IMG/VR virus record: IMGVR_UViG_3300035534_000060
Direction: 5' to 3' (one strand)
Length of the DNA stretch: 61,473 nucleotides
DNA from: a virus
Position numbers and translations under genes: made by a program. Shown piece by piece: positions 1 to 51,593 of this stretch. The stretch's first letter is position 1. Every line of letters begins with the position of its first letter. The notes under the pieces are model-generated. The model worked only from the letters and a program-made list of their open reading frames with translations. It did no database searches and was not told the DNA's origin.

Positions 1-294
1 GCCAATGAAAAAGTATAGTGATGAAGATTTGATCGATATTATGGCACAGGTAGCCATAGAATTGGGAAGAACACCAAGGATGCAGGATATGCTAAATAGG
101 AAAGGTGGGCCATATCCATCACTTTAGCTACTAACAGCACTGGTTAACGTCTGGAAATTTAGAAAAGTTGCCGGACAATGCACTGAATGCGCATTTTTTG
201 ATAGTGCAAAGGGTGTGTGTATATATTACGATGATGGAGAATGTAAAGAAGATTGTGATAATTTCAAAATGTTAAAACGAGGAGGAGAAAATTA
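1..294 (+). repeat. Duplicated terminal mosaic: 1-127 copies 300-426; 128-294 is a slightly diverged copy of 61245-61411
   Basis: Direct comparison by eye; the second part differs at about 5 positions yet keeps an open frame (F->V, I->V, Y->D relative to the 61127..61411 protein). Confidence 0.85.
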
Positions 295-660
295 ATGCCG
301 CCAATGAAAAAGTATAGTGATGAAGATTTGATCGATATTATGGCACAGGTAGCCATAGAATTGGGAAGAACACCAAGGATGCAGGATATGCTAAATAGGA
401 AAGGTGGGCCATATCCATCACTTTATCAGAAGCGTTTTGCATCTAAGAAAGGTGTTGAGGATGGATGGAACAATGCAGTCAAACTTGCTGGATTGGATTA
501 CAACAGGAAAAAACCTGATCAAGAAGGTGAATGTGGTGATTGTGGAGTAAACGGATACACTACAAATGGTCGCCTCATTAGATGGAGAGGTGGAAAAGAA
601 ATAGTGTGTTTAGCATGTTATGCTAAACGATATTATCGACAGTTTAGAAAAGATACATAA
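295..660 (+). CDS. Protein with HNH/homing-endonuclease-associated HTH-like repeat and C-terminal Cys-rich zinc ribbon
   Basis: GGAGG SD upstream; motif DLIDIMAQVAIELGRTPRMQDM...YQKRFAS; C-terminal CGDCG...CLAC; paralog of 1644..1949. Confidence 0.5.
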   Translation: MPPMKKYSDEDLIDIMAQVAIELGRTPRMQDMLNRKGGPYPSLYQKRFASKKGVEDGWNNAVKLAGLDYNRKKPDQEGECGDCGVNGYTTNGRLIRWRGGKEIVCLACYAKRYYRQFRKDT

Positions 661-1949: not shown

Positions 1950-2158
1950 TGCTGCCCATTTATTCTTGCGCTATATGCGGCATCCCAGTGAAAAGTGGTA
2001 AAGTAATTGATTACTATAATAAAAATCTTGAATCTGTGAAAGGTACAGCATATGTTCACTATGATTGTATGAGTAGATTTGAAGATTATATGACCGGGAT
2101 GGGTATGATACCAGAAAATATTGCAGATTTTAACTCCATTTATAATAAGGGGGTATGA
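1949..2158 (+). CDS. Small Cys/His-containing protein
   Basis: 69-aa ORF overlapping the previous stop; CAICG...HYDC possible metal-binding pairs. Confidence 0.35.
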   Translation: MLPIYSCAICGIPVKSGKVIDYYNKNLESVKGTAYVHYDCMSRFEDYMTGMGMIPENIADFNSIYNKGV

Positions 2159-3812: not shown

Positions 3813-4925
3813 ATGTTAAAGGCTTACAAGTATAGAATGTATCCTGATGAAAAACAAATTGAAATGTTCCATAAACATTTTGGGGCATGTAGATACATCT
3901 ATAATTGGGCGTTGGAAAATAAAATTAAATCTTATGAACAAGAAGGCAAATCGATTTCAAGATTTGAATTAAATGGGAAAATTCGGATGTTGAAAATGGA
4001 GTTCGAATGGTTGAAAGAAATTAATTCTCAATCATTGCAAGGTGCTACTCTTAATCTGGATAATGCTTTTACCAAGTTTTTCCGTGAGAAAAAGGGTTTT
4101 CCTAAATTTAAATCAAAGAAAAATCCGGTACAATCATTTTCTGTTCCACAACATTATGAGGTGGATTTTGATGGTAACAAAGTGAAACTTCCCAAAATTG
4201 GTTGGATTAAGACAAAGTTACATAGACGTTTTGAAGGTAATTTGAAAACTGCAACAATATCAAAAACACCATCTGGTAAATATTTCATTAGTATTCTTGT
4301 AGATGACGAAAAAGATTTGCCTGCCAAACAAAAGTTTAATGAAAACAATACGGTTGGTATTGATGTGGGAATTAAGGATTTTGCCATTACTTCTAATGGT
4401 GAAAAAATAGATAATCCCAAGCATCTTAATAATTCAATAAAACGTTTGAAAGTATTGCAAAAGCGTCTCTCACGAAAACAAAAAGGTTCAAAAAACAGAG
4501 AAAAAGCAAGACAGGAGATAGCAAAACTTCATGAGAAAATCGCAAATCAGAGAAATGATTTCCAGCACAAGTTGACAAGTCGACTCATAAGCGAAAACCA
4601 AGCGATTGCACTGGAAACATTAAACATATCTGGAATGTTGAAAAATCATTGTCTTGCACAATCCATTAATGATGTATCATGGAGTTCTTTTGTAACCAAA
4701 TTGGAATATAAAGCAGAATGGTACGGAAAAACAATTCTCCGTATCGGACAGTTCGAGCCATCTACTAAAATATGCAATATCTGTGGGTATCATAACAAAA
4801 AGATTACACTTGCAGACCGTAAATGGCAATGTCCTGATTGTGGTGAAACTCATGACAGAGATGTCAATGCTGCAATTAACATTAAGAAGTTTGCCTTAAA
4901 TAAACAGAATTTGATAGGTATTTGA
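3813..4925 (+). CDS. tnpB: TnpB (OrfB) RNA-guided endonuclease-like protein
   Basis: N-terminal LKAYKYRMYPDEKQ; RuvC-like GIDVGIKD, ALETLN, HDRDVNAA; zinc finger CNICGYH...CPDCGETH. Confidence 0.85.
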   Translation: MLKAYKYRMYPDEKQIEMFHKHFGACRYIYNWALENKIKSYEQEGKSISRFELNGKIRMLKMEFEWLKEINSQSLQGATLNLDNAFTKFFREKKGFPKFKSKKNPVQSFSVPQHYEVDFDGNKVKLPKIGWIKTKLHRRFEGNLKTATISKTPSGKYFISILVDDEKDLPAKQKFNENNTVGIDVGIKDFAITSNGEKIDNPKHLNNSIKRLKVLQKRLSRKQKGSKNREKARQEIAKLHEKIANQRNDFQHKLTSRLISENQAIALETLNISGMLKNHCLAQSINDVSWSSFVTKLEYKAEWYGKTILRIGQFEPSTKICNICGYHNKKITLADRKWQCPDCGETHDRDVNAAINIKKFALNKQNLIGI

Positions 4926-6420: not shown

Positions 6421-6585
6421 ATGGAAGAAATAATTGAAGGGTTCGCTGTAATCATAGTAGCATTTGTGGTGATTATGATACAAGCGGCCATATATGCTCT
6501 ATTAATTTATGGTGTGCTATGGTTCTTAGGCTTGCTATTGGGTGTAGATGTGACTGATGTGATTGTAAATTATATGCAGAGGTGA
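6421..6585 (+). CDS. Small membrane protein
   Basis: Hydrophobic core AVIIVAFVVIMIQAAIYALLIYGVLWFLGLLLG; start context AGGTGATGAT-ATGGAAGAAAT repeated at 6590. Confidence 0.4.
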   Translation: MEEIIEGFAVIIVAFVVIMIQAAIYALLIYGVLWFLGLLLGVDVTDVIVNYMQR

Positions 6586-6589
6586 TGAT

Positions 6590-6931
6590 ATGGAAGAAAT
6601 GACTGAAAAATTTGCGGAAGAGATGGAAGAGTATTTGGCCGATAGAGATATTTCCCTTGATGGTGTTAGTGATCGTTATTTGAAATATACTTTGCAGAAG
6701 ATGCTCAAGGAAGAGGCTGACCCTGCTGAAATGGCGGGCATATGCCTGTTGATGTATCAGCGTAAGAATAATGAAATAGAAAAGTTGGCCAAATTCTTGT
6801 ATATGGATGCCAATGAAGGTAGTTCATGGAATAATATCGATCATTTTGTTAAAGTTGCGTGGAGAATGGAGGCGCAATCTATGCTTAGAAAAGTCGCTCT
6901 ATATGAAAAATTTAAGGAGTCGTGCAAATGA
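6590..6931 (+). CDS. Hypothetical protein
   Basis: 113-aa ORF with the same 22-nt start context as the 6421 ORF. Confidence 0.45.
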   Translation: MEEMTEKFAEEMEEYLADRDISLDGVSDRYLKYTLQKMLKEEADPAEMAGICLLMYQRKNNEIEKLAKFLYMDANEGSSWNNIDHFVKVAWRMEAQSMLRKVALYEKFKESCK

Positions 6932-7092
6932 ATAAGGAAGATGTGCGCATATTTGGGTACGCCTGCATCCTTGTGGGTGTGCCCTATGGCTTCCTTGTGT
7001 GGGCTGATGCCATTAATTATAGTTTGATGGGGCCTGCGTATGCCATTGGAATAACTTTGGGCGGCCTGTTGATTGCGCTGTTGGCGAGGTGA
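6928..7092 (+). CDS. Small membrane protein
   Basis: 54-aa hydrophobic ORF overlapping the previous stop (ATGA). Confidence 0.3.
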   Translation: MNKEDVRIFGYACILVGVPYGFLVWADAINYSLMGPAYAIGITLGGLLIALLAR

Positions 7093-7096
7093 CCCA

Positions 7097-7353
7097 TGGG
7101 GGTAATTGGTCTATAATTATATTTTCTATTTTTAAGGGGTCTTCGGATGGGGGTATCTTTTTTATACTGGTCGGCTGATTGCGATTTTATTTTTGGGCTG
7201 ACCGAAAATTTTTTGTAGGATGACAAATTGCATATGTAACCGATTTGTTACGCATTGGCTGATAGCGATTTTGACCAGTGGGGGTAAAATGCCAATGGGG
7301 GTATTTTTGTGGAAAGGGGTATTTTGAATGGGGGTCAAATTTGAGATGGGGTA
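7097..7353 (+). repeat. Array of about 7 TGGGGGTA-type motifs plus two GGCTGAT(T/A)GCGATTTT repeats
   Basis: Motif copies at about 7097, 7148, 7279, 7296, 7315, 7329, 7347; direct repeats at 7173-7188 and 7257-7272. Confidence 0.7.
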
Positions 7354-7684
7354 TAATGTGGATAAATTTGCCGTTTTTTGGCCTTCAGATTATATCCAGA
7401 TAAGCCTGAGAACGAACAGAGATAGCCATGACAAGCATTTTGACCCTCTACACGACCTATGACCCTCGTAGAGAATTTAAACGCCACACAGACGCTCTCA
7501 CAGCCCCAAAATAGGCCATTCTATCGCCCGCTATCGAAAGCAATATCACAAATATTATTGATGCCCACTGATTTTCGCTATCGGTAGGCACATTTCCTCG
7601 GCCTAATGCCACAAAATTCACTCAATTTTATAACAATTCATACGATCACAATTAAATTCGGACATAAAAATAAAAACTTAATTT

Positions 7685-7813
7685 AAAAATCGTGACAATT
7701 TTGGGCAAAACAATTACTATCAAATAAATTTTTAAAAATCGTGACAAACATTTTAAAAATCGTGATAAAGTTTAAAAATCGTGATTAAAAATCGTGATTA
7801 AAAATCGTGACAA
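7685..7813 (+). repeat. Iteron array: 6 copies of AAAAATCGTGA(C/T)(A/T), last three tandem with 14-bp period
   Basis: Copies at about 7685, 7734, 7755, 7774, 7787, 7800 in an ORF-free region. Confidence 0.8.
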
Positions 7814-7841
7814 AGGTTGGGCCCTTTTAGACTGTAACGGC

Positions 7842-8100
7842 GTTAACATTCGAAAAAATTTTTGAATGTACACATCTGTACATTGATGTACATATCTGTA
7901 CATTGGTGTACACATATGTACAATAGAAGGTTTTTTAGATTGTTAGCCCCGTTAACATTGGCCGATTCTTTTAACTGTAACACTGTTAACAATTTATAGA
8001 GTTAACGGCGTAACGGCCAAATTTAATTTAGGTTGTTCATACTGTTAACTTTATAAATTATTAACGGCGTTAACATCATAAAAAAGCCCCGATTGTTAAC
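7842..8100 (+). repeat. Cluster of 7 GTTAAC palindromes, several within TTAACGGCGTTAAC
   Basis: GTTAAC at 7842, 7951, 7985, 8001, 8044, 8069, 8095. Confidence 0.7.
7867..7922 (+). repeat. Six tandem 10-bp repeats, each beginning with palindromic TGTACA
   Basis: TGTACA at 7867, 7877, 7887, 7897, 7907, 7917 (one helical turn spacing). Confidence 0.8.
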
Positions 8101-8313
8101 GGCATGAACTGTTATAGCGTGTGCCGGCTCTCTCACCTGTCCGGCCTATAGGGCGCCCCGGATACCCTGTGTCTAATTTACTACATGCTTTAAACCTATA
8201 TAAAGGTTTTTATTTATTACAAATAGAAACCTATATATACCATTAGCCCCTATAGAATGTTGCCCTTAGGGGCGGGATGTATGAATGGATGCAATTGAAG
8301 AATTGTATGGTAT

Positions 8314-8390
8314 AAATAGAAACCTATATATACCATTAGCACCTATAGTAGATTGTGGCCAGGGGCGGCCCTAATAAGCCTCAATAATAA
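8314..8390 (+). promoter_or_regulatory. Promoter-leader cassette (AAATAGAAACCTATATATA ... GTGGCCAGGGGCGGCCCTAATAAGCCTCAATAA) for 8407..8595
   Basis: Near-identical 75-bp copy at 8972-9050; partial copy at 8221-8275. Confidence 0.55.
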
Positions 8391-8406
8391 ACAGGAGTTG
8401 TAAGAA

Positions 8407-8595
8407 ATGAGCACAGTATTTTCCGAAGAGAACGGTTACACAAACGGATACTGTCCGGCTTGTGGGTACAATCCGGTAGAACCAGAATTCCCAATCTTCC
8501 AATTATTTGGAGATGGGGAGTATATAAGGGGGCATCAAATATGCCCTAATTGTAGGGAACTGCACCCAATTAATGAAAATATGGACGCAATCTAA
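8407..8595 (+). CDS. Small zinc-ribbon protein
   Basis: CPACG...CPNC pairs; driven by repeated promoter-leader cassette. Confidence 0.45.
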   Translation: MSTVFSEENGYTNGYCPACGYNPVEPEFPIFQLFGDGEYIRGHQICPNCRELHPINENMDAI

Positions 8596-10051: not shown

Positions 10052-10256
10052 GCATCACCAATACAATATAGACATATGCTTATTAGGGCATTGAATGGGG
10101 TATATTAAAGACTTTATGCCAAATAGGTACTATGACATAGGTAGAATATTTTAAAGCCTTATATGGGCTTGTATGGATTAATCTATCAAAAACAAAAACC
10201 TTATATATTTTGGGCGCATATAGAGTGTTGCCCCTAATGGGTAGGATTGATAAAAC

Positions 10257-10949: not shown

Positions 10950-11051
10950 ACATTCCTCTTTTATAAGGGGGCCCATATACAATAACGGGTTTGTGTATAT
11001 GGGGGGTATTTATTATATGTGGGATATTAAATTAAAACTGGAGTTTTATAA

Positions 11052-11270
11052 ATGAGGATTAATATAAGTGGCCCAATATTAAAAGGCCCGGCCGATGATC
11101 AAATAATAGAACTGTTTAAAGAATATGGGTTAACTATTAAAGATGCTGATGATTATTATAAATTAGGTGGCCCTAATTTTTGCAGTCCATATAAATTTAT
11201 AGATTTAAGAAAAAAGTTTACTATCAATGAAATCTATAACATGAAGAATAAATTTTATGTAAAGTATTAA
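11052..11270 (+). CDS. Hypothetical protein
   Basis: 72-aa ORF. Confidence 0.35.
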   Translation: MRINISGPILKGPADDQIIELFKEYGLTIKDADDYYKLGGPNFCSPYKFIDLRKKFTINEIYNMKNKFYVKY

Positions 11271-11777
11271 GAGTTTTTTAACTGTTTAATTCCTTTATAT
11301 TTTTTATATTTTATATAAATTACTAGTATAGGTACTGACCCCCACAGGCTAAAAAAGTTTAGGGGGTGGGGGGATATTTTTTCTGCGGGATACCCCAAAT
11401 ATAATATGAAATAAAATTTTTCAAAGTAATTGGTTTTAATTTTTAATACCCCAAAATTATAATTATATCAAAAATTAAAAAGTAAAAGGTTTTTAATTTT
11501 AAAACTACCCCATCACTTCACCCAATCAGAAATCCTTTTCTCACTCTCAGGCCTCTCCCTTTCCCAAGGCCTAACCCTACACACAGGCAAATATTCCTAA
11601 ACCGCATCACGCCTCTCCTCAGCATCTTCCCACGCATCCTCAATATTATCCTTCTCAACCACCAAATCCTCAATCTCATCCACAATTTCCTCAGTCCGAT
11701 GCTTATAATAGCGAATCTGATCGGCCAATTCCTCATACTCGCCACGCAACTCCCTAAGTTTCCTTCGATTCATATAA

Positions 11778-12292: not shown

Positions 12293-12651
12293 TCCTTTTC
12301 TTCAAATTCAACGCCAAATGTGGGCAGCAATTCGCTCATAGACATGTCAATATGCCTATGTTGATCTCTCATATCGTCCAAATTCTTAGCATTCGTCCAC
12401 TCAATCACCTTCTCAATGGCATCCTGCAAATCTTTCAGAACCACATGCGGCTCATCCATATACCCAGCCCGCACAGAAATATCATACACGCCATTCGAAG
12501 TACACAATATCAGCGATCTATACCAACTTTCAAAAGATTCTTCAAATGCCCCATCTTGTTCAACCAGCCGGGCATCCCTTATCAGCACATATGGGCAGCA
12601 AAACCGCCCATTCTCTTCATCATAGCCACACTTATAATATTCTATTTTCAT
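12286..12651 (-). CDS. Hypothetical Cys-containing protein (minus-strand island)
   Basis: 121-aa ORF; N-terminal CGYDEENGRFCC. Confidence 0.4.
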   Translation of the reverse strand: MKIEYYKCGYDEENGRFCCPYVLIRDARLVEQDGAFEESFESWYRSLILCTSNGVYDISVRAGYMDEPHVVLKDLQDAIEKVIEWTNAKNLDDMRDQHRHIDMSMSELLPTFGVEFEEKEC

Positions 12652-17789: not shown

Positions 17790-19292
17790 ATGAATTTAGA
17801 TCAGATAAATGAATATATGGAGGAGCAAGATTATGACAAACGCCAAAGAAATTATGTCAACTTGCTCTGTAATACTTTTAACATGAAAAATGCTAAAGGT
17901 GAATTATTTCCTTATAGGCCTGAAAAATATCAAATAAATTATCACGCTCATTGTATGCTTGCCATGAAAGACTATCCTCACCGTATTTGGCGTAAAGCAA
18001 GGGGTGTCGGGGCAACTGCTACTACAATGATGGATGCTTTGATGGTTTCACACAGATTCAGAAAACAAACAATACCAGTAGCATCTATAACAGGCGAACA
18101 GGCATCTGTACCAATAGATTGGTCAATTGAATTGGCTGATAATACACAAATAGACGGCTTTTTTAATAGGCGGCAAGATGTGACTACTCGATGTGTATTA
18201 GATAATGGAAGTACAATTTTTGTAGTTCCGGGGCAAAAACCTGACTCTTTACGTAGTTACCGTTCTGTATTTGTTGTATATGATGAATTTGCTTTCCATG
18301 AATATCCACGCAAAATAAAGATTGCTGGTGATAGATGTGTTTCTGAAGGCGGCCAATTAAATATTCTTTCAACTGTTAATGGTACAGAAAACGAGTTTTG
18401 GAGACTTCTTGAAAATGCTGAAGATTTTGGTTATAAGGAATTTTCAGTACCTATGTTTGATCCAGAAAAGTTTGATATAAAGAAGCCTATACCGTATCAA
18501 ATTGAGCAAGGTTGGATTAAACCTATCGCCCCATGGATGAATATAGATATGCTTGAACGGGATAGAAAGAGTGACCCGATAGCGTTTATGCAAGAAACCC
18601 AATGTAATCCAGAAGACGGCGCTACATCATTCATGCCTACTGCACTTCTTTACAGAGCATCTAGAGAGCCATATATGATAGAGCAGGATGCCAGAGAAGG
18701 ATTCGGCATATATGTATGTGGTATTGACTTTGCTACTGAAAAAGATATGTCTGCATTTGAAATTTTTGAAAAAGTGCCACAAGGTTGGATACATCGCAAA
18801 AGAGTTGCTGTACAAAAGCATGATACGCCTCAGCAAGTTCAACTATTAAAAAGTTTGCATAGAGCATTTAATTTCAAATATGTGACTATAGATATGACAG
18901 GCCCGGGTACAGGATTTTACCATTATGCTAAAGAGCAGCTGCAAACTGAAGTGATTGGAATAAATTTCTCTACAAGGCACATCATTGAACCAGATAATCA
19001 ATATTTATATAGAAAAGCAGATAAAAATGTTAGAAAGGATGGAAAAATTTCCATACCAATTAAAAGAGCAATGGCTACTCATATGAAGAAAGAGGCTGAT
19101 GAAGGTCGATTGCTATTTCTTAATTATCCAGAATATATTAAAGATTTGCATTCAGTACCATATGATTCGCTTGATGCAAAGCGCAATAAAAATCATCATG
19201 GTGATGAGTTCTGGGGCAGCGCATTGGCATTATGGGGATACCAGATGCATGAGAATAGAATATCCATACCGCCAGTTTCATTGAGGTATTAA
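17790..19292 (+). CDS. Terminase large subunit (putative)
   Basis: 500 aa directly upstream of portal-sized gene; RGVGATAT P-loop-like, VFVVYDEFAF Walker-B-like, acidic C-terminal nuclease-like half. Confidence 0.6.
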   Translation: MNLDQINEYMEEQDYDKRQRNYVNLLCNTFNMKNAKGELFPYRPEKYQINYHAHCMLAMKDYPHRIWRKARGVGATATTMMDALMVSHRFRKQTIPVASITGEQASVPIDWSIELADNTQIDGFFNRRQDVTTRCVLDNGSTIFVVPGQKPDSLRSYRSVFVVYDEFAFHEYPRKIKIAGDRCVSEGGQLNILSTVNGTENEFWRLLENAEDFGYKEFSVPMFDPEKFDIKKPIPYQIEQGWIKPIAPWMNIDMLERDRKSDPIAFMQETQCNPEDGATSFMPTALLYRASREPYMIEQDAREGFGIYVCGIDFATEKDMSAFEIFEKVPQGWIHRKRVAVQKHDTPQQVQLLKSLHRAFNFKYVTIDMTGPGTGFYHYAKEQLQTEVIGINFSTRHIIEPDNQYLYRKADKNVRKDGKISIPIKRAMATHMKKEADEGRLLFLNYPEYIKDLHSVPYDSLDAKRNKNHHGDEFWGSALALWGYQMHENRISIPPVSLRY

Positions 19293-21480: not shown

Positions 21481-22803
21481 ATGCCATTTGCAGGATACGA
21501 TAACTTTAAAAATTGTGTGAAGCAGAATCAGGATAAAGAAGACCCAGAGGCATACTGTGCTGAAATACAGGAACAGGTAGAAGGGAGTGATGATATAACT
21601 GAAGATAATAATGTGGGTAGTGTTACATCAACCATACCTATAAAAATTATCGCTACTGAAGATGAAAATATTTTTACAATAGCAGCAGCAAAGGTTGGAA
21701 GTAAATCTTTTGGTGCATCTGGTAAAAAATATGTTTTTACAGAAGAAGCACTTAAAACATATGCTGAATCATGGAATGATGGGATTATTACTCTCAATCA
21801 TAGAAGATTGGATGATGGTGTCATTGTATCTTCATGGTATGATGAAGAAACGCAAATGGTTATGATGAATATTAAAGCAGATAATGAAGAAACTGCTAAA
21901 CGTATTCGTGACGGTGAACCAACCGGTGTTTCCATTGAAGCAAATGTACTTGACAGTGATGATGATGGAAATATTCTCTCTTTTGATGGTACTGGAGTTG
22001 GGATAATTTTTTACCCTGAACAGCCAGCATGTCCAGCAAAAGATGGATGCGGTATTCTTGCCAAAGAACAGTTTGATGAAAAGATTGTTACCGCAAGCGA
22101 AAAGAGGCAAGAAAAGATCAAATCATCTGAGTACGATTTAGCCCGAACAAATGATGCAGGCGACACAATAAAAATTGCTGAAGTAGTCATTTGGGATGAT
22201 ATGGGTGAATTTGAAAAAGATGTTGAATGGCAAATTATCAATTACGTTACTTATTACGGCGAAGGCAGTTATGAACTACTTGAATATTCCGATACGAAAG
22301 TTGGGGATACTGTATCTGGTACACCAGAATATACCGTAAATATTAGCGTAAATAAATCTACTACTAATGGAGAAATCTCTATGGCAAATGATAGCGAACC
22401 CGAAGTAATTGCGAAGGCTGATTATGAAGCCCTCGAAGCAAAGATGAAAAGTCTTGAAGATACACATAAGGATGAGATTGAGGCAAAAGATTCTGAAATC
22501 AAAGAACTTAAGGATGAAATCAATAGGCGTGACAGTGAGATTGCTGCATCACTTGTTGAGGAAATTAAGGCTTGGGATACAGAATTTGAACCTGAAGAAG
22601 GAATGCCACTCTCTACTATTCAGACTATTCATGCATCTGTGAAACGTGCCATTGCTGTACAGGAAGAGGCAAAGGCAAGCGAACAGGAAGAAGAGCCTGA
22701 AGAGGAAATTGAGGCAAGTGAATTTACTGCACCTGAGGCAGGAAAGAAATCTGATGGCTTTACCATTGGCGGAATTGTCAACGGCAAATGGGTCAGCAAA
22801 TAA
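21481..22803 (+). CDS. Putative scaffolding and/or prohead-maturation protein
   Basis: 440 aa between portal and capsid; acidic coiled-coil C-terminal third. Confidence 0.35.
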   Translation: MPFAGYDNFKNCVKQNQDKEDPEAYCAEIQEQVEGSDDITEDNNVGSVTSTIPIKIIATEDENIFTIAAAKVGSKSFGASGKKYVFTEEALKTYAESWNDGIITLNHRRLDDGVIVSSWYDEETQMVMMNIKADNEETAKRIRDGEPTGVSIEANVLDSDDDGNILSFDGTGVGIIFYPEQPACPAKDGCGILAKEQFDEKIVTASEKRQEKIKSSEYDLARTNDAGDTIKIAEVVIWDDMGEFEKDVEWQIINYVTYYGEGSYELLEYSDTKVGDTVSGTPEYTVNISVNKSTTNGEISMANDSEPEVIAKADYEALEAKMKSLEDTHKDEIEAKDSEIKELKDEINRRDSEIAASLVEEIKAWDTEFEPEEGMPLSTIQTIHASVKRAIAVQEEAKASEQEEEPEEEIEASEFTAPEAGKKSDGFTIGGIVNGKWVSK

Positions 22804-28100: not shown

Positions 28101-28355
28101 ATGACAATTGAAGACGAAATTTATGAGATTGATAATAACCCTACCAAAGTAGTGAATGATAAAATTGATGAATTAATTTTAGCATGTTCAAAAATTCCTA
28201 ATAGTGCTCCTAAAAAATCTGGTAATAAAACTATGTATCAGCATTTACAAGACATGAAAAGGCATCTTGAGACTGACCCTACTGATTGGCTTGCAGACGA
28301 GAAAGCAAGGTTAGAACAGGCATTGATTGATAGAGATAATGAGGTGCTTGTATAA
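28101..28355 (+). CDS. Hypothetical protein
   Basis: 84-aa ORF. Confidence 0.4.
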   Translation: MTIEDEIYEIDNNPTKVVNDKIDELILACSKIPNSAPKKSGNKTMYQHLQDMKRHLETDPTDWLADEKARLEQALIDRDNEVLV

Positions 28356-31219
28356 TGGTAGCAATTGAGATAAGTACATTAGCAGAACTTGATGCAGTTC
28401 GGAATGACCTTACTGCTGATTATGTGCTTGTGAATGATATAGATGCTTCTGATACAAGTACATGGAATAGTGGTGCAGGATTTGAGCCGATGGGCAATTT
28501 CACAGGAACATTCGATGGAAACGGACACACAATCTCAAATCTTTATATTAATAGATCAATAGAAAACTCATCTGGGTTATTTAGAGTAGTAGAAGGAACA
28601 CTATCAAACACACAAATAATCGGTGCAAATATTACTCGTGGAAAGTATGTCGGGATTCTTGCAGGTACAGTAAGAAGTGGTGGACAGGTATATCAATGTT
28701 CATCATCTGGAACTATCGGTGGCAGTCGTATTGGTGGTTTGATAGGCTATGTTTTGAATGGTTCAATTGTACGTAATTGTTCATCGAGTGCTACTGTTAT
28801 AGGAACTGGTGATTATGTAGGTGGACTTATTGGTTGGTTAGACTATCCCAATACAATTCTTGAAAATTGTTATTCAGTTGGCGAAGTATCACATACAGGT
28901 ACACCCGATTTTATAGGTGGATTAATAGGTCATACTCGTGATAACCCAATTATTATAAATTCCTACTATGATACAGAAACCTCTGGACAATCTGATACGG
29001 GTAAAGGAGAACCACGTACAACAGCAGAAATGCAGACTCAGGAAACCTTTGCTGATTGGGATTTTGATACAGTTTGGACAATGGATGGTTATCCAGCACT
29101 AAGAGTATTCTATCCAGATTTGGAGACAGATGACGAAGGTGTAATAGAGATAGGTACATTGTCTGAACTCAATGCAATCAGATATGATTTGACTGCAAGT
29201 TACAAACTTACTGCCGACATTGACGCAAGTATAACACAGGAATGGAATCTGTATGCAATGGTAGACAAAGTCAATGATGCTACCGAATGGGATTCAGGCA
29301 CAAAGACAAATACCATAGTTAATGCAGAAGATAACTTGACATTAGATACAGGACAGACATCAGGTACATGGTTACAGAAATGGAATCTTACAGACATTAG
29401 GGATTTAGCAAACAGTAAAATAAGTTTTGATGCTATCACACCTACAGATACTTCCGTAACTGTTGAAGCAGGATTAGGTGACGAAACAACCGAACCAGCA
29501 AGTTATACAGCCGTTACTTCCGGTGACAGTATTCCCGGAACTGCCGTTAATGACGACTTGAGTGCAAATTATCTGTACATTAAGGTATCATTGGGTACAA
29601 CTGGTGCAGAGATGCCGGAAGTCATACAGGTATATACAGAAGTATATAGTAACGAATACGCAGGATTTGACCCAATTTATATTTTCACAGGAACATTCGA
29701 TGGAAACGGACACACAATCTCAAATTTGTATATTAATAGACCAACAGAAGACTGGGTTGGGTTATTTAAAAGACTACGTGGAACTCTACAGAACGTAACA
29801 ATGACTGGACTAGATATTACAGCATTATCACGAGTAGGAATGGTGGGGGAAACTATCGCACAAGGATTAATAAAAAATTGTCATGTATCCGGCACAATTA
29901 CTGGATTACAAAGATATTCTGGGTTAATTTCAGGTGCTGTAAATGATAGTATAGTGGAACAATGTAGTAGTACCGGAAGTGTGAGTGGTAATAGTTCGGG
30001 TTTTACTGGTGGCGGATTAATAGGATATATGTTGGATGGTGCTGTTTTAAAAAATTCGCATTCAGATGCAGACGTTACCATGACAGATAGGGCAGGGGGT
30101 GCAGTCGGACTGGTGGAAAGAGTAGATACAACAATTCAAAATTGTTACTCTATAGGTACTGTATCTGCATCAAGTGACGTAGGTGGGTTGGTCGGACGCT
30201 TTGATGGATTAGGAACAATATCAAACTCCTATTATGATACAGAAACCTCTGGACAATCTGATACGGGTAAAGGAGAACCACGTACAACAGCAGAATTGAA
30301 ACAAAGTTACCCTATAAGTAAACCTATTATAGAATCTTTTGATTTAGATAAGATTATAGTAAGAAATAATAATCTATATGATGCTGTGTTGACTATGAAA
30401 CGGGGTAACCCACTTATAAAGAATGATTATTCAGGAGTCAATAATTTATATAGTAGTATTAATAGTCGATTTAAATACATACCTGATAATACTACACCAT
30501 TTATAGATAGCCAAATGGATGGTACAGGAAATATTTCACAAACTTTCGATAATGATAATTATGCTATTTACATCGGTGGTAATGAGACTACAGGCATAAG
30601 GTTATCTGTTTCACCTAAACAATTGACAGTCACATCTAATTTAGATGACAATGTATTATATTCCGAAGATTATAATACTACTGACACAACAGTATTTTCT
30701 GGCGGTATAGCACTCGATAATTCCAACATTTATATTGAATGTGAGGATATGACTACTGCTAATGGTGCATCATTATATTCTGGTAGTGATGCTAGCGGTG
30801 GCAGTGCTGTTAAATTCGATGCGCAGGATGAAATGTGTTACAATTATTTTGGTTTAGGTACTGATTTACCATTGGGTACATATAAATTAGTAGTTAGGGC
30901 TAAACAGGATAGTGCTGTGACTGATGACCTTACTATGAATATTAGGAATAAAACTGAAGCAAGTATTTTTGCTACAGAAAATAAAACTTTATCATTGGGA
31001 TGGGAATATTATATATTTGATGTTACATTTACAGAAGCAGTTGAAGGTGACGTATTAAGCCTTGAACTTCTTAAAAATACTACAACTTCAAATAACATTT
31101 ATGTTGACTATGTGGTGTGGTTACCAATTTCATCTCCAAATAAGAATTTCCCAAAAGATTTGGCACATCAAGCATTAGTCGAATCTAATTCATCCAGAGA
31201 ATTAATTGGGAGATTATAA
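28355..31219 (+). CDS. GLUG-motif repeat protein (putative tail fibre or adhesin) with internal module duplication
   Basis: Repeated GGLIG/GLFG units; two copies of FTGTFDGNGHTISNLYINR and SYYDTETSGQSDTGKGEPRTTAE with long identical nucleotide stretches. Confidence 0.6.
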   Translation: MVAIEISTLAELDAVRNDLTADYVLVNDIDASDTSTWNSGAGFEPMGNFTGTFDGNGHTISNLYINRSIENSSGLFRVVEGTLSNTQIIGANITRGKYVGILAGTVRSGGQVYQCSSSGTIGGSRIGGLIGYVLNGSIVRNCSSSATVIGTGDYVGGLIGWLDYPNTILENCYSVGEVSHTGTPDFIGGLIGHTRDNPIIINSYYDTETSGQSDTGKGEPRTTAEMQTQETFADWDFDTVWTMDGYPALRVFYPDLETDDEGVIEIGTLSELNAIRYDLTASYKLTADIDASITQEWNLYAMVDKVNDATEWDSGTKTNTIVNAEDNLTLDTGQTSGTWLQKWNLTDIRDLANSKISFDAITPTDTSVTVEAGLGDETTEPASYTAVTSGDSIPGTAVNDDLSANYLYIKVSLGTTGAEMPEVIQVYTEVYSNEYAGFDPIYIFTGTFDGNGHTISNLYINRPTEDWVGLFKRLRGTLQNVTMTGLDITALSRVGMVGETIAQGLIKNCHVSGTITGLQRYSGLISGAVNDSIVEQCSSTGSVSGNSSGFTGGGLIGYMLDGAVLKNSHSDADVTMTDRAGGAVGLVERVDTTIQNCYSIGTVSASSDVGGLVGRFDGLGTISNSYYDTETSGQSDTGKGEPRTTAELKQSYPISKPIIESFDLDKIIVRNNNLYDAVLTMKRGNPLIKNDYSGVNNLYSSINSRFKYIPDNTTPFIDSQMDGTGNISQTFDNDNYAIYIGGNETTGIRLSVSPKQLTVTSNLDDNVLYSEDYNTTDTTVFSGGIALDNSNIYIECEDMTTANGASLYSGSDASGGSAVKFDAQDEMCYNYFGLGTDLPLGTYKLVVRAKQDSAVTDDLTMNIRNKTEASIFATENKTLSLGWEYYIFDVTFTEAVEGDVLSLELLKNTTTSNNIYVDYVVWLPISSPNKNFPKDLAHQALVESNSSRELIGRL

Positions 31220-47420: not shown

Positions 47421-47984
47421 GTGATACATATGCAAAAAACATGCACTCAATGTAATGATGAATTGATTATAGATGTGAATTGGACTGAAGCATTTAAGAG
47501 AAAAAGGATGTTTAAATGTAAAAGTTGCCATGCCAAAAATACTATGGAATGGAAACATCGTAATGGTACAAAATCAATGTCAGAAAATGACAAATGTTCA
47601 TCGTTCTTAGGTGTATATATCGCAGAGAGAGTTTTATCTAAAGTATTTAAAGATGTTAAAACTATGCCATATGGGCATTCTGGATATGATTTTGTGTGTA
47701 ATAAGGGTAAGAAGATTGATGTGAAAAGCGCATGTATGAAACATAGATATGATTGGAGTCCTTCATATTCATTCGTTTTAAGAAATAATCAAATTGCTGA
47801 TTATTTTCTATGCATTGCATTCGATAATAGAGAAGATTTGAACCCTCTACATTTGTGGTTATTACCAGCAGATATATTTAATCATCTGAATACTTTAAGT
47901 ATATCTGAATCTACATTAAATAAATGGGATGAATATAAATTAGATATTTCACCCACAGTAAAGCAATGTGAACAATTAAAATAA
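47421..47984 (+). CDS. Zinc-ribbon plus PD-(D/E)xK nuclease-like protein (paralog A)
   Basis: CTQC...CKSC; GYDFVCNKGKKIDVKSA fits D...DxK; long nucleotide identity with 48490..49110. Confidence 0.5.
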   Translation: MIHMQKTCTQCNDELIIDVNWTEAFKRKRMFKCKSCHAKNTMEWKHRNGTKSMSENDKCSSFLGVYIAERVLSKVFKDVKTMPYGHSGYDFVCNKGKKIDVKSACMKHRYDWSPSYSFVLRNNQIADYFLCIAFDNREDLNPLHLWLLPADIFNHLNTLSISESTLNKWDEYKLDISPTVKQCEQLK

Positions 47985-48490: not shown

Positions 48491-49110
48491 TGATGTCTCA
48501 TTTTAAATTTTGTATTAAATGTGGTTGTGATCTAATACCATACAAAACATGGAGTCCATCATATGTGAGGAAAGGTGTCTATAAATGTAAAAAATGTGAT
48601 TATAAACACACATTAGAATGGCAGAAAAATAACAAAGAAAAGCACTTGGAACGAGCAAGAAATTATAATTATATGCGTGGTGGAAAACCCATGTCAGAAA
48701 ACAAAGAATGTTCGTCATTTCTTGGTTGTTATGTTGCTGAACGGGTGTTATCTAAGGTCTTCAAAGATGTTGAAGTAATGCCAAACAACAATCCGGGATA
48801 TGATTTTGTGTGTAATAAGGGTAAGAAGATTGATGTGAAGAGTTCGTGTGTGAGGAATATGGGTAAGAAATCTCCTATGTGGCATTTTAGTATAAGGAAA
48901 AATCTCATACCTGATTATTTTTTATGTCTGGCATTCGATAATAGAGAAGATTTGAACCCACTATATGCATGGTTATTACCTTCATATAAAATTAATTTTA
49001 AAACATTGGTAGGTATATCTGAATCTACGATTAATAAATGGGATAAATACAAGTTAGATATAGGAAAAGTAGAATTATATTGTAAGAATATGAAGGAGGA
49101 GTCACAATAA
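48490..49110 (+). CDS. Zinc-ribbon plus PD-(D/E)xK nuclease-like protein (paralog B)
   Basis: CIKCG...CKKC; same core as paralog A with near-identical nucleotide blocks (e.g. 48798-48842 vs 47688-47732). Confidence 0.5.
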   Translation: MMSHFKFCIKCGCDLIPYKTWSPSYVRKGVYKCKKCDYKHTLEWQKNNKEKHLERARNYNYMRGGKPMSENKECSSFLGCYVAERVLSKVFKDVEVMPNNNPGYDFVCNKGKKIDVKSSCVRNMGKKSPMWHFSIRKNLIPDYFLCLAFDNREDLNPLYAWLLPSYKINFKTLVGISESTINKWDKYKLDIGKVELYCKNMKEESQ

Positions 49111-50696: not shown

Positions 50697-51593
50697 ATGG
50701 AAAATTGGACAAAAGAATATGCGCCTAAAACTTTGGAAGAATATGTACAGGATGATGAAATAAAAGAAACTATCCAGAAGTACATCGATAACGATATGCG
50801 TACACCAATGATTTTTGAAGGCCCAGCAGGCACAGGCAAAACTACACTTGCCCGTATAATTGGTAATGAAATGAATGCCAATGTCTATGAACTAAATGCA
50901 TCTACTGATAATGGTGTTGATGTGGTACGTGAAAAAATTGTCACATGGGCAAGAAGTAAGCCATTTAGCGATAAAAGAACTGATGGACTTAACTTAATTT
51001 TTTGTGATGAATCTGAAAGATTTACTCCACAGGCACAAGATGCTCTCAAGCGCACAATTGATGATTATGGCAAACACACAATTTTTATTTTCTGCACAAA
51101 TAATATTCATAAGATTATTAAGCCTATTCAAAGTCGTGCTGGAAAATATTGTTTACATATTGGATATGTAGATGAATTTAGTATCAAGGATTTGATTGTG
51201 CAAACCGCAGAAAAAGCACAAATAACTATCGGAATGAGCGATATTGACAAGATAGTGGATAAGGCGGATGGTGAACCAAGGGCAGCAGTCAATATGCTAC
51301 AGTCGTATGCTATTGGAGATTTCAATGAGAGTGGTAGTAAACGTGATGACTTTAGATCATTCATGATGATGGCGCTACATGATGAAAAACCATTGGATGC
51401 AATTACCCGTGTCAGTGAAAATGATTTGCAGGAATTTGGGAGATATATAATTTCAACAGAGAAGCAACCCATTGAATTACGCAAGGAACTGTTAAAAATT
51501 ATTGCTGATACCGATAAAGCGATTCAAAACAGTGTAAATAAAGATATACATTTGCTTGATATGTATATCAAAATTGTGGAGGCGCTCAAATGA
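50697..51593 (+). CDS. Replication factor C small-subunit-like clamp loader
   Basis: FEGPAGTGKTT, ELNASTDNGVDVVREK, LIFCDESERFT, KIIKPIQSRA, GEPRAAVNMLQ parallel archaeal RFC motifs. Confidence 0.8.
   Translation: MENWTKEYAPKTLEEYVQDDEIKETIQKYIDNDMRTPMIFEGPAGTGKTTLARIIGNEMNANVYELNASTDNGVDVVREKIVTWARSKPFSDKRTDGLNLIFCDESERFTPQAQDALKRTIDDYGKHTIFIFCTNNIHKIIKPIQSRAGKYCLHIGYVDEFSIKDLIVQTAEKAQITIGMSDIDKIVDKADGEPRAAVNMLQSYAIGDFNESGSKRDDFRSFMMMALHDEKPLDAITRVSENDLQEFGRYIISTEKQPIELRKELLKIIADTDKAIQNSVNKDIHLLDMYIKIVEALK

What the first reader, a model, noticed from the sequence alone, without database searches (positions are those of the whole stretch)
7097..7353. Array of TGGGGGTA motifs with paired GGCTGAT(T/A)GCGATTTT repeats
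About seven copies of (A)TGGGGGTA occur in the same orientation within 260 bp, interleaved with two copies of GGCTGATTGCGATTTT / GGCTGATAGCGATTTT and an inverted GTAAC...GTTAC. G-runs are otherwise rare in this genome.
Basis: seen in the sequence. Interest (0 to 1): 0.45.

Follow-up and report, generated by a model that had tools for sequence, protein, structure and literature searches.

The report
G-rich binding-site array, archaeal virus control region
The repeated TGGGGGTA motifs are real and far beyond chance: they are most likely docking sites for an unidentified DNA-binding protein in the main non-coding control region of a virus that probably infects salt-loving methane-producing archaea, which makes this an ordinary kind of element in a little-studied virus.

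Summary
Eight same-strand copies of W-T-GGGG(G)-T-A/C lie in 7096-7353. Dinucleotide shuffles give a mean of 0.5 and a maximum of 4. The two GGCTGAT(T/A)GCGATTTT 16-mers and the GTAAC/GTTAC palindrome are also there.

The window is a circularly assembled, roughly 61-kb archaeal tailed virus. Its TnpB is 84-88% identical to Methanohalophilus copies. The array opens the only large non-coding gap (7093-8406). That gap also holds AAAAATCGTGA iterons in AT-rich DNA, palindromes and divergent archaeal promoters.

The motif favours intergenic DNA: 15 of 35 genome-wide copies fall in about 10% of the sequence. It includes a second, inverted cluster at 11337-11513. Two close variants keep the G cores while reshuffling copies. 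Distant relatives carry pairs of the motif 16-17 nt apart, directly upstream of promoter TATA boxes.

My best reading is an array of binding sites for a sequence-specific DNA-binding protein that has not been identified, serving as a regulatory or architectural element beside the probable origin (confidence about 0.45). It is not a host origin recognition box (ORB), an RNA family or a coding sequence, and it forms a G-quadruplex only with 11-13-nt loops. It is a new member of a known kind, of moderate to low interest.

The parts
7096..7155 (+). Left cluster of three G-motif copies: ATGGGGGTA 7096-7104 (starts 4 nt after the stop codon of ORF 6922-7092), AAGGGGTC 7134-7141 and ATGGGGGTA 7147-7155. 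TATA-like and T-tract sequences lie between and after them.
   Evidence: Copy 1 with its flank is invariant in L002 and L294. Copy 3 keeps its G-run in L294 although its flanks diverge.
7166..7279 (+). Central core bracketed by the inverted 7-mers ACTGGTC (7166-7172) and GACCAGT (7273-7279). It contains the 16-mer GGCTGATTGCGATTTT (7173-7188), the hairpin arms GGTCGGC (7169-7175) and GCTGACC (7197-7203) followed by AAAATTTTTT, the palindrome GTAACcgatttGTTAC (7236-7251) and the 16-mer GGCTGATAGCGATTTT (7257-7272).
   Evidence: This is the best-conserved block across the three virus variants. In L002 the hairpin arm GCTGACC becomes GCCGACC, which turns a G.U pair into G-C. Folding z-scores are -2.0 on the + strand and -2.7 on the - strand.
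7278..7353 (+). Right cluster of five G-motif copies, 14-19 nt apart: 7278-7286, 7295-7303, 7313-7321, 7328-7336 and 7346-7353.
   Evidence: G4Hunter gives the top 60-nt window here. In L294 this cluster is remodelled, with extra copies and an HNH endonuclease gene inserted, but the G cores persist.
11337..11513 (-). Second cluster of the same motif on the opposite strand: GTGGGGGTC (11337-11345), GGGGTA (11391-11396), GGGGTA (11447-11452) and ATGGGGTA (11506-11513). It sits in very AT-rich DNA at the convergent junction after the minus-strand gene block.
   Evidence: It is 99% conserved in the L002 virus.
2148..2155 (+). Single intergenic copy AGGGGGTA, about 65 nt upstream of the HTH-protein gene (2220-2786).
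   Evidence: Conserved in L002 as GGGGGGTA while its flanks change.
10095..10102 (+). Single intergenic copy ATGGGGTA, followed by TATATTAAAG.
   Evidence: The core is conserved in L002 while the sequence just upstream differs.
11001..11008 (+). Single intergenic copy GGGGGGTA, abutting the TATA-like TATTTATTATA upstream of ORF 11052-11270.
   Evidence: Conserved in L002 with the G-run one base shorter.
7683..7818 (+). Context: six direct TTAAAAATCGTGA iterons in DNA that is about 80% A+T. This is the probable origin core of the same non-coding gap.
   Evidence: L002 and L294 have 6-7 copies in a different arrangement. Distant relatives have a different AAAATC-type iteron in the same place.
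7826..8110 (.). Context: GTTAAC(GG) repeats in both orientations and three TGTACAyATmTGTACA palindromes.
   Evidence: The TGTACA repeats recur in the relative L369.
8197..8239 (.). Context: back-to-back archaeal BRE/TATA promoters of the virus's main class, one pointing left (8220 to 8197) towards a conserved GC-rich segment (8117-8175) and the iterons, and one pointing right (8216-8239). A further rightward copy lies at 8309-8332.
   Evidence: The same layout is seen in the relative L365.

Best explanation
The array is a cluster of recognition sites for a sequence-specific DNA-binding protein. The protein is probably virus-encoded and has not been identified. The cluster sits at the left edge of the virus's main non-coding control and origin region. 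The unit is a short oriented site (W-T-GGGG(G)-T-A/C, usually followed by T/A). The basic functional form appears to be a pair of direct repeats 16-17 bp apart, as seen next to promoters in distant relatives. In this virus the pair has been amplified to 3 + 5 copies flanking a conserved core that holds two 16-mers and hairpins. Shown here: the motif is real, conserved, mostly intergenic and non-coding, and it lies next to TATA boxes. Inferred: the protein binds cooperatively to tandem sites. At single or paired sites abutting a TATA/BRE it would help or hinder TBP/TFB loading. At the 8-copy array it would build a larger protein-DNA complex that insulates or organises the neighbouring origin-like region, for example by stopping read-through from the long rightward operon that ends at 7092, or by setting the timing of early transcription.
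For: The array is far beyond chance. There is no coding potential: only short ORFs, and one is disrupted by a 1-nt G insertion in L002. No Rfam family or tRNA was found, and the + strand shows no significant fold. The motif favours intergenic DNA: 15 of 35 copies lie in about 10% of the genome (P = 8e-7; excluding the array, 7 of 27, P = 0.015). Single copies keep their core in L002 while their flanks change. L294 has reshuffled and multiplied copies (GACCAGTrGGGGT units, 21-nt spacing) but keeps the G cores. Its inserted HNH gene is driven from cGGGGGTAgTTTTATATATctTGGGGGTAg, with G-motifs on both sides of a TATA box. Distant syntenic relatives (47-55% amino-acid identity in the neighbouring HTH protein) carry pairs of the motif: AGGGGTCatttacagaTGGGGGTC directly upstream of GATTATAAG plus SD plus ATG in L365; and AGGGatttcacagaTGGGGGTC 6 nt upstream of the canonical promoter AAAACCTATATATA in L369 and L370. 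The window has the matching TGGGGGTCaaatttgagaTGGGGTA. The surrounding gap is the only large non-coding region. It has iterons in AT-rich DNA and divergent promoters. An HTH protein (2220-2786) that has a G-motif upstream of its own gene is present in all these relatives.
Against: No binding protein has been identified. The HTH protein gives only generic HTH-domain matches, and its link to the motif rests on co-occurrence in a set that was found through that same protein. Spacing within the array is irregular (13-19 nt, then a 131-nt gap) and is not in helical phase. Only three close variants and a handful of distant relatives were available, so conservation statistics are thin. The same-strand orientation could partly reflect the general G-over-C excess of the coding strand (GGGG 128 against CCCC 50). 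No canonical promoter follows the array itself. One relative (L368) has the HTH gene but no intergenic G-motif in the 10 kb seen.
Confidence: 0.45

Rival explanations
1. The G-motifs are origin iterons. The viral initiator binds the array, and perhaps also the inverted cluster 4 kb away, to open the adjacent AT-rich DNA. The initiator could be the 920-aa PrimPol-containing protein or an unknown partner. This would resemble the ori plus crr arrangement of satellite phage P4; the P4 comparison rests on my own knowledge of P4, not on a test here.
For: The array lies in the only large non-coding gap, next to iterons in DNA that is about 80% A+T, and next to palindromes and divergent promoters. A second motif cluster sits in some of the most AT-rich DNA of the genome (86-87% A+T). 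The virus encodes its own PrimPol, helicase, PolB and RFC-like protein but no Orc1 or MCM was found. In L369 a G-motif pair opens the iteron-containing gap.
Against: The AAAAATCGTGA repeats are the better iteron candidates and lie 330 bp away. G-motifs also occur singly next to ordinary promoters. L294 tolerates an insertion of about 900 bp in the middle of the array. No link between the initiator and the motif could be tested.
Confidence: 0.2
2. The copies that are followed by a T-tract are high-affinity sites for the host chromatin protein MC1. MC1 bends DNA sharply, so the array would be an architectural bending locus comparable to IHF sites in phage control regions.
For: The MC1 SELEX consensus is AAAAACACAC(A/C)CCC(C/A), with a KD of about 2 nM (PMC3928310). 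Its best match on either strand of the whole window is the reverse complement of 7148-7162 (2 mismatches). Two of the five 3-mismatch hits are 7296-7310 and 11367-11381, both at G-rich elements. MC1 is the characteristic nucleoid protein of Methanosarcina and its relatives, the inferred host group.
Against: Only 3-4 of the 15 intergenic copies have the T-tract, and the spacer between the A-tract and the C-run is shorter than in the consensus. The copies in distant relatives (GGGGTCatttacaga) do not resemble the MC1 site.
Confidence: 0.08
3. The G-runs act through nucleic-acid structure. Rightward transcription through the G-rich non-template strand would form a G-quadruplex or a stable R-loop that pauses polymerases or primes replication.
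For: The stretch 7277-7336 has the highest 60-nt and 100-nt G4Hunter scores in the genome. ViennaRNA with quadruplex energies places a G4 in the minimum-energy fold (-17.8 against -14.6 kcal/mol). A separate element at the convergent junction is G4-capable in the relatives L365 and L369.
Against: The loops are 11-13 nt, and no G4 motif exists at loop limits of 7 or 12 nt. Paired and single copies elsewhere cannot fold within one strand. Six T5-T6 tracts (archaeal termination signals, PMC8716108) lie on the same strand at 7129-7381, several of them ahead of the right-hand cluster, so read-through transcription into it should be low. The conserved TA/TC after the G-run is not explained by a G4.
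Confidence: 0.07
4. The motifs are transcript 3'-end or terminator elements: both clusters follow the end of a transcription unit in the sense orientation.
For: Copy 1 starts 4 nt after a stop codon. Both clusters lie downstream of operon ends. Several copies run straight into T-tracts, for example GGGGGTATCTTTTTT and GGGGGTATTTTT.
Against: Only 4 of 15 intergenic copies have four or more T within 10 nt. Other operon ends in this genome use plain T8 tracts without a G-run. In relatives the motif sits upstream of promoters, not after genes. Known archaeal terminators are U-tracts without a G-rich element (PMC8716108, listed).
Confidence: 0.08
5. The array is a packaging (pac) or integration (attP) site: two sets of protein-binding arm repeats flanking a core where DNA is cut or exchanged. 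The comparison with P1 pac and lambda attP rests on my own knowledge of those systems, not on a test here.
For: The layout is 3 + 5 direct repeats flanking a conserved core of about 115 bp with inverted repeats. The nearby HTH protein is predicted to have an N-terminal HTH followed by two long helices, an architecture also seen in small terminases; that resemblance is my inference.
Against: No integrase was found among the ORFs scanned, and there is no tRNA or tRNA fragment. The terminase genes are 7-10 kb away. The fold search gave no terminase match. L294 splits the two arms by about 900 bp. Motif copies elsewhere next to promoters are not explained.
Confidence: 0.05

Closest known systems
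Operator or upstream-activating-site arrays of archaeal and phage transcription regulators, such as upstream activator sites next to the BRE/TATA of archaeal promoters (comparison from my own knowledge, not tested here)
   Same: Short oriented sites sit immediately next to TATA boxes as pairs of direct repeats, are conserved across relatives and are restricted to intergenic DNA.
   Different: No regulator is known. The 8-copy array has no canonical promoter behind it. The motif sequence matches no described archaeal site that I could find.
Iteron arrays of plasmid and phage origins, including the P4 ori/crr pair bound by the alpha primase-helicase (P4 details from my own knowledge)
   Same: There are multiple direct repeats in the main non-coding region beside AT-rich DNA, a second cluster of the same motif about 4 kb away, and a virus-encoded primase.
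   Different: Spacing is irregular, a separate and more typical iteron family (AAAAATCGTGA) is present, and copies also occur at ordinary promoters.
Archaeal origin recognition boxes (ORB) with their terminal GGGGT 'G-string', which are bound by Orc1/Cdc6
   Same: The array shares the GGGGT pentamer that ends the Methanomicrobia ORB consensus TCCA[GC]T[GT]GAAA[CT][AG]A[AT]GGGGT (PMC4164010). It also lies in an origin-like region of a virus from that host group.
   Different: No array copy matches the ORB with 6 or fewer mismatches, and the dyad TCCA..GAAA is absent. All array copies point the same way rather than facing each other across an unwinding element. No orc1/cdc6 gene was found.
MC1 high-affinity site AAAAACACAC(A/C)CCC(C/A)
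   Same: It combines an A-tract with a C-run, and the best genome-wide match falls on array copy 3.
   Different: The spacer is shorter, only a minority of copies fit, and there is no experimental link.

Membership tests
Archaeal ORB (Orc1/Cdc6 origin recognition box) | A 20-nt consensus with the dyad core TCCA-N-TGGAAA followed by the GGGGT G-string (Methanomicrobia regular expression from PMC4164010) | tested here: not met
   A scan of both strands allowing up to 6 mismatches finds no hit in 7096-7353. The best hits are in coding DNA (60433, 3 mismatches) and at the single copy at 2135-2154 (4 mismatches). Only the GGGGT is shared.
Archaeal ORB (Orc1/Cdc6 origin recognition box) | [quoted passage not shown] | tested here: not met
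   All eight array copies are on the + strand. The array itself is only 48-68% A+T.
Archaeal ORB (Orc1/Cdc6 origin recognition box) | An adjacent orc1/cdc6 initiator gene | tested here: not met
   Pfam, PHROGs and NCBIfam scans of the neighbouring ORFs and the large ORFs found no Orc1/Cdc6. The only AAA+ protein is RFC-like and lies at 50697-51593.
Origin iterons | Several direct repeats of one motif in a non-coding region next to an AT-rich segment | tested here: met
   There are eight copies in 258 bp inside the 1.3-kb gap, and DNA that is about 80% A+T lies 300 bp to the right.
Origin iterons | Regular, helically phased spacing, typically about 11 or 22 bp | tested here: not met
   The spacings are 37, 14, 131, 17, 18, 15 and 17 nt, worked out from the coordinates. 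Tandem Repeats Finder does not call the array.
Origin iterons | Bound by the replicon's initiator and required for replication | not testable with these tools
   This needs binding and replication assays.
Intramolecular G-quadruplex motif | Four or more G-runs of at least 3 separated by short loops (7 nt or less, or 12 nt or less when relaxed) | tested here: not met
   There is no match at loop limits of 7 or 12 nt. A match (7280-7351) appears only at 15 nt.
Intramolecular G-quadruplex motif | High G4Hunter score | tested here: met
   The score is 1.32 over 60 nt at 7277-7336, the highest in the genome. Scores over 25 nt reach 1.48-1.64.
Transcription-factor operator or upstream site | A conserved short motif restricted to intergenic DNA and positioned next to core promoter elements | tested here: met
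   15 of 35 copies are intergenic (P = 8e-7). Pairs abut the TATA box or canonical promoter in L365, L369, L370 and L294.
Transcription-factor operator or upstream site | An identified cognate DNA-binding protein | tested here: inconclusive
   The candidate HTH protein (2220-2786) is present in all relatives seen, but the fold search gives only generic HTH-domain matches.
attP or pac site | A cognate integrase, or an adjacent terminase together with mapped DNA ends | tested here: not met
   No integrase or tRNA was found. TerL is at 17790-19292. No read data were available to map ends.
Known structured RNA | A match to an Rfam covariance model | tested here: not met
   Only chance miRNA-hairpin hits on the palindromes at 7831-7959 were found, and nothing in 7096-7353.

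The most novel reading that the evidence does not exclude
The array and its inverted partner cluster 4 kb away are a new type of origin or control element for a methanogen virus that replicates with its own PrimPol. The oriented G-runs would either recruit the initiator or form transcription-dependent G-loops that prime DNA synthesis. Alternatively, they would act as a decoy that soaks up a host G-string-reading protein such as Orc1/Cdc6 or MC1.
Probability: 0.12. Interest if true: 0.7.

Novelty: new member of a known kind. Interest (0 to 1): 0.33.

Why it matters
Almost nothing is known about how tailed viruses of methanogens control transcription and replication. This locus gives a concrete, testable set of cis elements in one 1.3-kb region: the G-motif, the paired 16-mers, the AAAAATCGTGA iterons and two promoter classes. 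It also gives a short list of candidate binding proteins. If the motif's protein were found, it would supply a regulator-operator pair for a virus of Methanohalophilus-like hosts. As it stands, this is a well-supported but ordinary kind of feature: a repeat array in a viral control region.

Tried and rejected
- **Phage database:** blastn of 6500-8500 against the phage database found nothing.
- **Array pattern in IMG/VR:** scans for the TGGGGGTA array pattern returned mostly coding tandem repeats in unrelated, often giant-virus, contigs. Only the L002 virus is related.
- **Iteron scans:** the viral and metagenome scans for repeated AAAATCGTGA first suggested a widespread iteron. Inspection showed unrelated tandem repeats, so I withdrew that idea; only L294 and L348 are true relatives.
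- **L319:** this contig has both a GGGGTCAA repeat and an AAAATCGTGA repeat, but it is low-complexity tandem DNA with no other similarity to the window. I set it aside as coincidence.
- **Structural-gene relatives:** relatives found through a structural gene (L246-L248) share only that module and lack the motif.
- **Host ORB consensus:** the scan found no match in the array.
- **RNA and small ORFs:** the Rfam and tRNA scans were negative. RNA folding of the array and of the unique stretch 7354-7660 was not significant on the + strand and only mildly so on the - strand. A small-ORF or Shine-Dalgarno-like reading (GGGGGU followed by ATG) was considered and dropped. The ATG belongs to the next repeat unit, and L002 carries a frameshifting G insertion.
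- **Candidate proteins:** the fold search of the HTH protein gave only generic HTH hits.

Full report
**What the window is**

The window is an archaeal tailed-virus genome.
- The large terminase is closest to those of Methanofastidiosa and Halorubrum tailed viruses.
- The replication genes include a PrimPol-type primase inside a 920-aa protein, an SF2 helicase, family-B polymerase, an RFC-like ATPase, Dam methylase and ribonucleotide reductase.
- A BRE/TATA-type promoter, AAATAGAAACCTWTATATA, recurs 12 times in front of gene blocks with strong GGAGG ribosome-binding sites.
- A TnpB insertion element at 3813-4925 is 84-88% identical to copies in Methanohalophilus genomes and 72-79% identical to Methanolobus copies. 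The host is therefore probably a halophilic member of the Methanosarcinaceae.
- The sequence is a circular assembly: 127-357 repeats 61243-61473, and a related contig reads straight across the join.

**The observation**

Eight same-strand copies of W-T-GGGG(G)-T-A/C lie between 7096 and 7353.
- All four exact TGGGGGTA in the window are here.
- In 5000 dinucleotide-preserving shuffles of the local 268 nt, the mean count of G{4,}T[AC] is 0.51 and the maximum is 4, against 8 observed.
- The two 16-mers GGCTGAT(T/A)GCGATTTT (7173-7188 and 7257-7272) are unique in the window, and the palindrome GTAAC..GTTAC is at 7236-7251.
- The central block is bracketed by inverted ACTGGTC/GACCAGT and contains a hairpin, GGTCGGC..GCTGACC. 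In a relative, a one-sided change turns a G.U pair of that hairpin into G-C.
- The statement that G-runs are otherwise rare is only partly true.

**Setting**

The array begins 4 nt after the stop codon of the last gene of a long rightward gene block. It opens the only large non-coding gap of the genome, 7093-8406. From left to right the gap holds:
- the G-motif array with its conserved core;
- a unique stretch (7354-7540);
- six TTAAAAATCGTGA iterons in DNA that is about 80% A+T (7683-7818);
- GTTAAC and TGTACA palindromes (7826-8110);
- a conserved GC-rich segment (8117-8175);
- back-to-back canonical promoters, one of which points left into the gap.

This is the anatomy expected of a combined origin and early control region.

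**The motif family is wider than the array**

Across both strands G{4,}T[AC] occurs 35 times.
- Fifteen copies are intergenic, although my rough gene map makes only about 10% of the genome intergenic (P = 8e-7; excluding the array, 7 of 27, P = 0.015).
- Besides the array there is a second cluster of four copies on the minus strand at 11337-11513. It sits in some of the most AT-rich DNA of the genome, at a convergent gene junction.
- Single copies lie at 2148, 10095 and 11001, two of them running straight into TATA-like sequence.

**Close relatives**

- A 60-kb IMG/VR virus (L002, L371) is 98% identical across 7093-7530, higher than in the flanking coding DNA. It keeps all eight copies, the second cluster and the singles. 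At the singles the G core is kept while the flanks change.
- A third variant (L294) is more informative. The central core is unchanged, but the flanks of the left cluster have diverged with the G-run retained.
- In L294 the right cluster has been rebuilt with extra GACCAGTrGGGGT units and about 900 bp of inserted DNA carrying an HNH endonuclease gene. That gene's own TATA box is flanked on both sides by GGGGGTA.
- The motif is therefore maintained while copy number and spacing drift, and the two clusters can be pulled apart.

**Distant relatives**

Homologues of the HTH protein encoded at 2220-2786 (47-55% identity) led to syntenic contigs. These share the canonical promoter, a different AAAATC-type iteron in the equivalent gap, the leftward promoter next to a GC-rich segment, and the TGTACA repeats. 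They carry the G-motif as pairs 16-17 nt apart:
- AGGGGTCatttacagaTGGGGGTC directly upstream of a TATA box, ribosome-binding site and start codon (L365);
- AGGGatttcacagaTGGGGGTC 6 nt upstream of a canonical promoter (L369, L370);
- a pair at the start of the iteron-containing gap (L369).

The window's TGGGGGTCaaatttgagaTGGGGTA is the same arrangement. This is the strongest evidence that the unit is a protein recognition site working next to promoters, and that the window's 8-copy array is an expanded version.

**What it is not**

- It is not coding: there are only short ORFs, and one is broken by a G insertion in L002.
- It matches no Rfam family and contains no tRNA. The + strand RNA fold is not significant.
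- It is not a host origin recognition box. The Methanomicrobia consensus TCCA[GC]T[GT]GAAA[CT][AG]A[AT]GGGGT (PMC4164010) has no match with 6 or fewer mismatches in the array. All copies point the same way, and no orc1/cdc6 gene was found (and the protein scans).
- A canonical G-quadruplex is not predicted, because the loops are 11-13 nt. The region does have the top G4Hunter score in the genome.
- Only 4 of the 15 intergenic copies are followed by a T-tract, so a terminator role does not fit most copies.
- No integrase was found, and the terminase genes are far away.

**A lead that remains open**

The SELEX consensus of MC1, the nucleoid protein characteristic of Methanosarcina-type archaea, is AAAAACACAC(A/C)CCC(C/A) (PMC3928310). 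Its best match in the whole window falls on array copy 3, and two further top matches fall on other G-rich elements. Only the copies followed by a T-tract fit, so I keep this as a minor rival.

**Verdict**

The finding is real and functional-looking. Its most probable role is a multi-site docking array for a sequence-specific DNA-binding protein at the edge of the virus's origin and early-control region (confidence about 0.45). An origin-iteron role is the main rival (about 0.2). MC1-guided bending, G4 or R-loop structure, terminator, and pac or attP roles trail behind. In kind it is a familiar feature, a repeat array in a viral control region, in an unfamiliar virus. I class it as a new member of a known kind, of moderate to low interest.

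Noticed in passing
window 3813-4925 (+): A TnpB (IS200/IS605 OrfB, Cas12f-like) gene is inserted in the virus. It is absent from the otherwise 93-98% identical relative L002. It is 84-88% identical to Methanohalophilus chromosomal copies, which gives the host inference and indicates a recent insertion.
   Followed up: partly
window 1-425 and 61243-61473: There is an assembly overlap: 127-357 repeats 61243-61473 (98%), and 1-126 is an exact copy of 300-425. The genome is circular or terminally redundant with a unit length of about 61,116 bp. The first 126 nt look like an assembly artefact.
   Followed up: partly
window 679, 2820, 8216, 8220(-), 8309, 8969, 10681, 44702, 45079, 50629, 55517, 60063: Twelve copies of an archaeal BRE/TATA promoter, AAATAGAAACCTWTATATA, are often followed by a 5' hairpin and a GGAGG ribosome-binding site. 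The motif is conserved in distant relatives (L365, L369, L370).
   Followed up: yes
window 5693, 5861, 6000(-), 21343(-)/21366, 44199(-)/44222: Seven copies of TTTCTGTGTACTTTAA(TATTATAGTA), mostly as inverted pairs, lie upstream of the 440-aa ORF at 21481 in the structural-gene block and in the divergent gap at 44.2 kb. This looks like a second promoter or operator class. It also occurs in L369 and L370.
   Followed up: partly
window 7683-7818: Six direct TTAAAAATCGTGA iterons lie in DNA that is about 80% A+T. Close relatives have 6-7 copies in a different arrangement. Distant relatives have GAAAATCC[CG]AGC iterons at the same place, suggesting that the iteron and its initiator specificity evolve together.
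   Followed up: partly
window 8117-8220 (-): A leftward canonical promoter (8220 to 8197) fires into a conserved GC-rich segment and then into the palindrome and iteron region, with no ORF. The same layout occurs in L365 at 12500-12600. It could produce an origin-activating or primer transcript.
   Followed up: no
window 11337-11382; L365 17645-17690; L369 9650-9700: A conserved element AAAAAAGTTTAGGGGG lies at the convergent gene junction. In the window it forms a CCCCCAC/GTGGGGG hairpin followed by T6. In the two distant relatives the left arm is replaced by G-runs, giving four G-runs with 1-nt outer loops, which is quadruplex-capable.
   Followed up: partly
L294 (reverse strand) about 990-1410, within the array: An HNH homing-endonuclease gene, with an N-terminal HNH-associated repeat like the window's ORF 295-660, is inserted inside the G-motif array of one variant together with a GC-rich segment of about 200 bp. 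Rfam finds nothing there.
   Followed up: partly
window 7354-7540: A unique non-coding stretch is 98% identical in L002 and about 95% in L294, and similarity to L002 stops abruptly at 7543. The minus-strand fold of 7354-7660 is mildly better than shuffles (z = -2.2). It could be a small RNA or a protein-binding region.
   Followed up: partly
window 47564-47947 vs 48678-49061; 28475-29032 vs 29660-30298: There are internal duplications: two neighbouring genes share segments at 76-87% nucleotide identity, and the 954-aa ORF at 28355-31219 in the structural-gene block contains a repeat of about 1.2 kb period, 76-96% identical.
   Followed up: no
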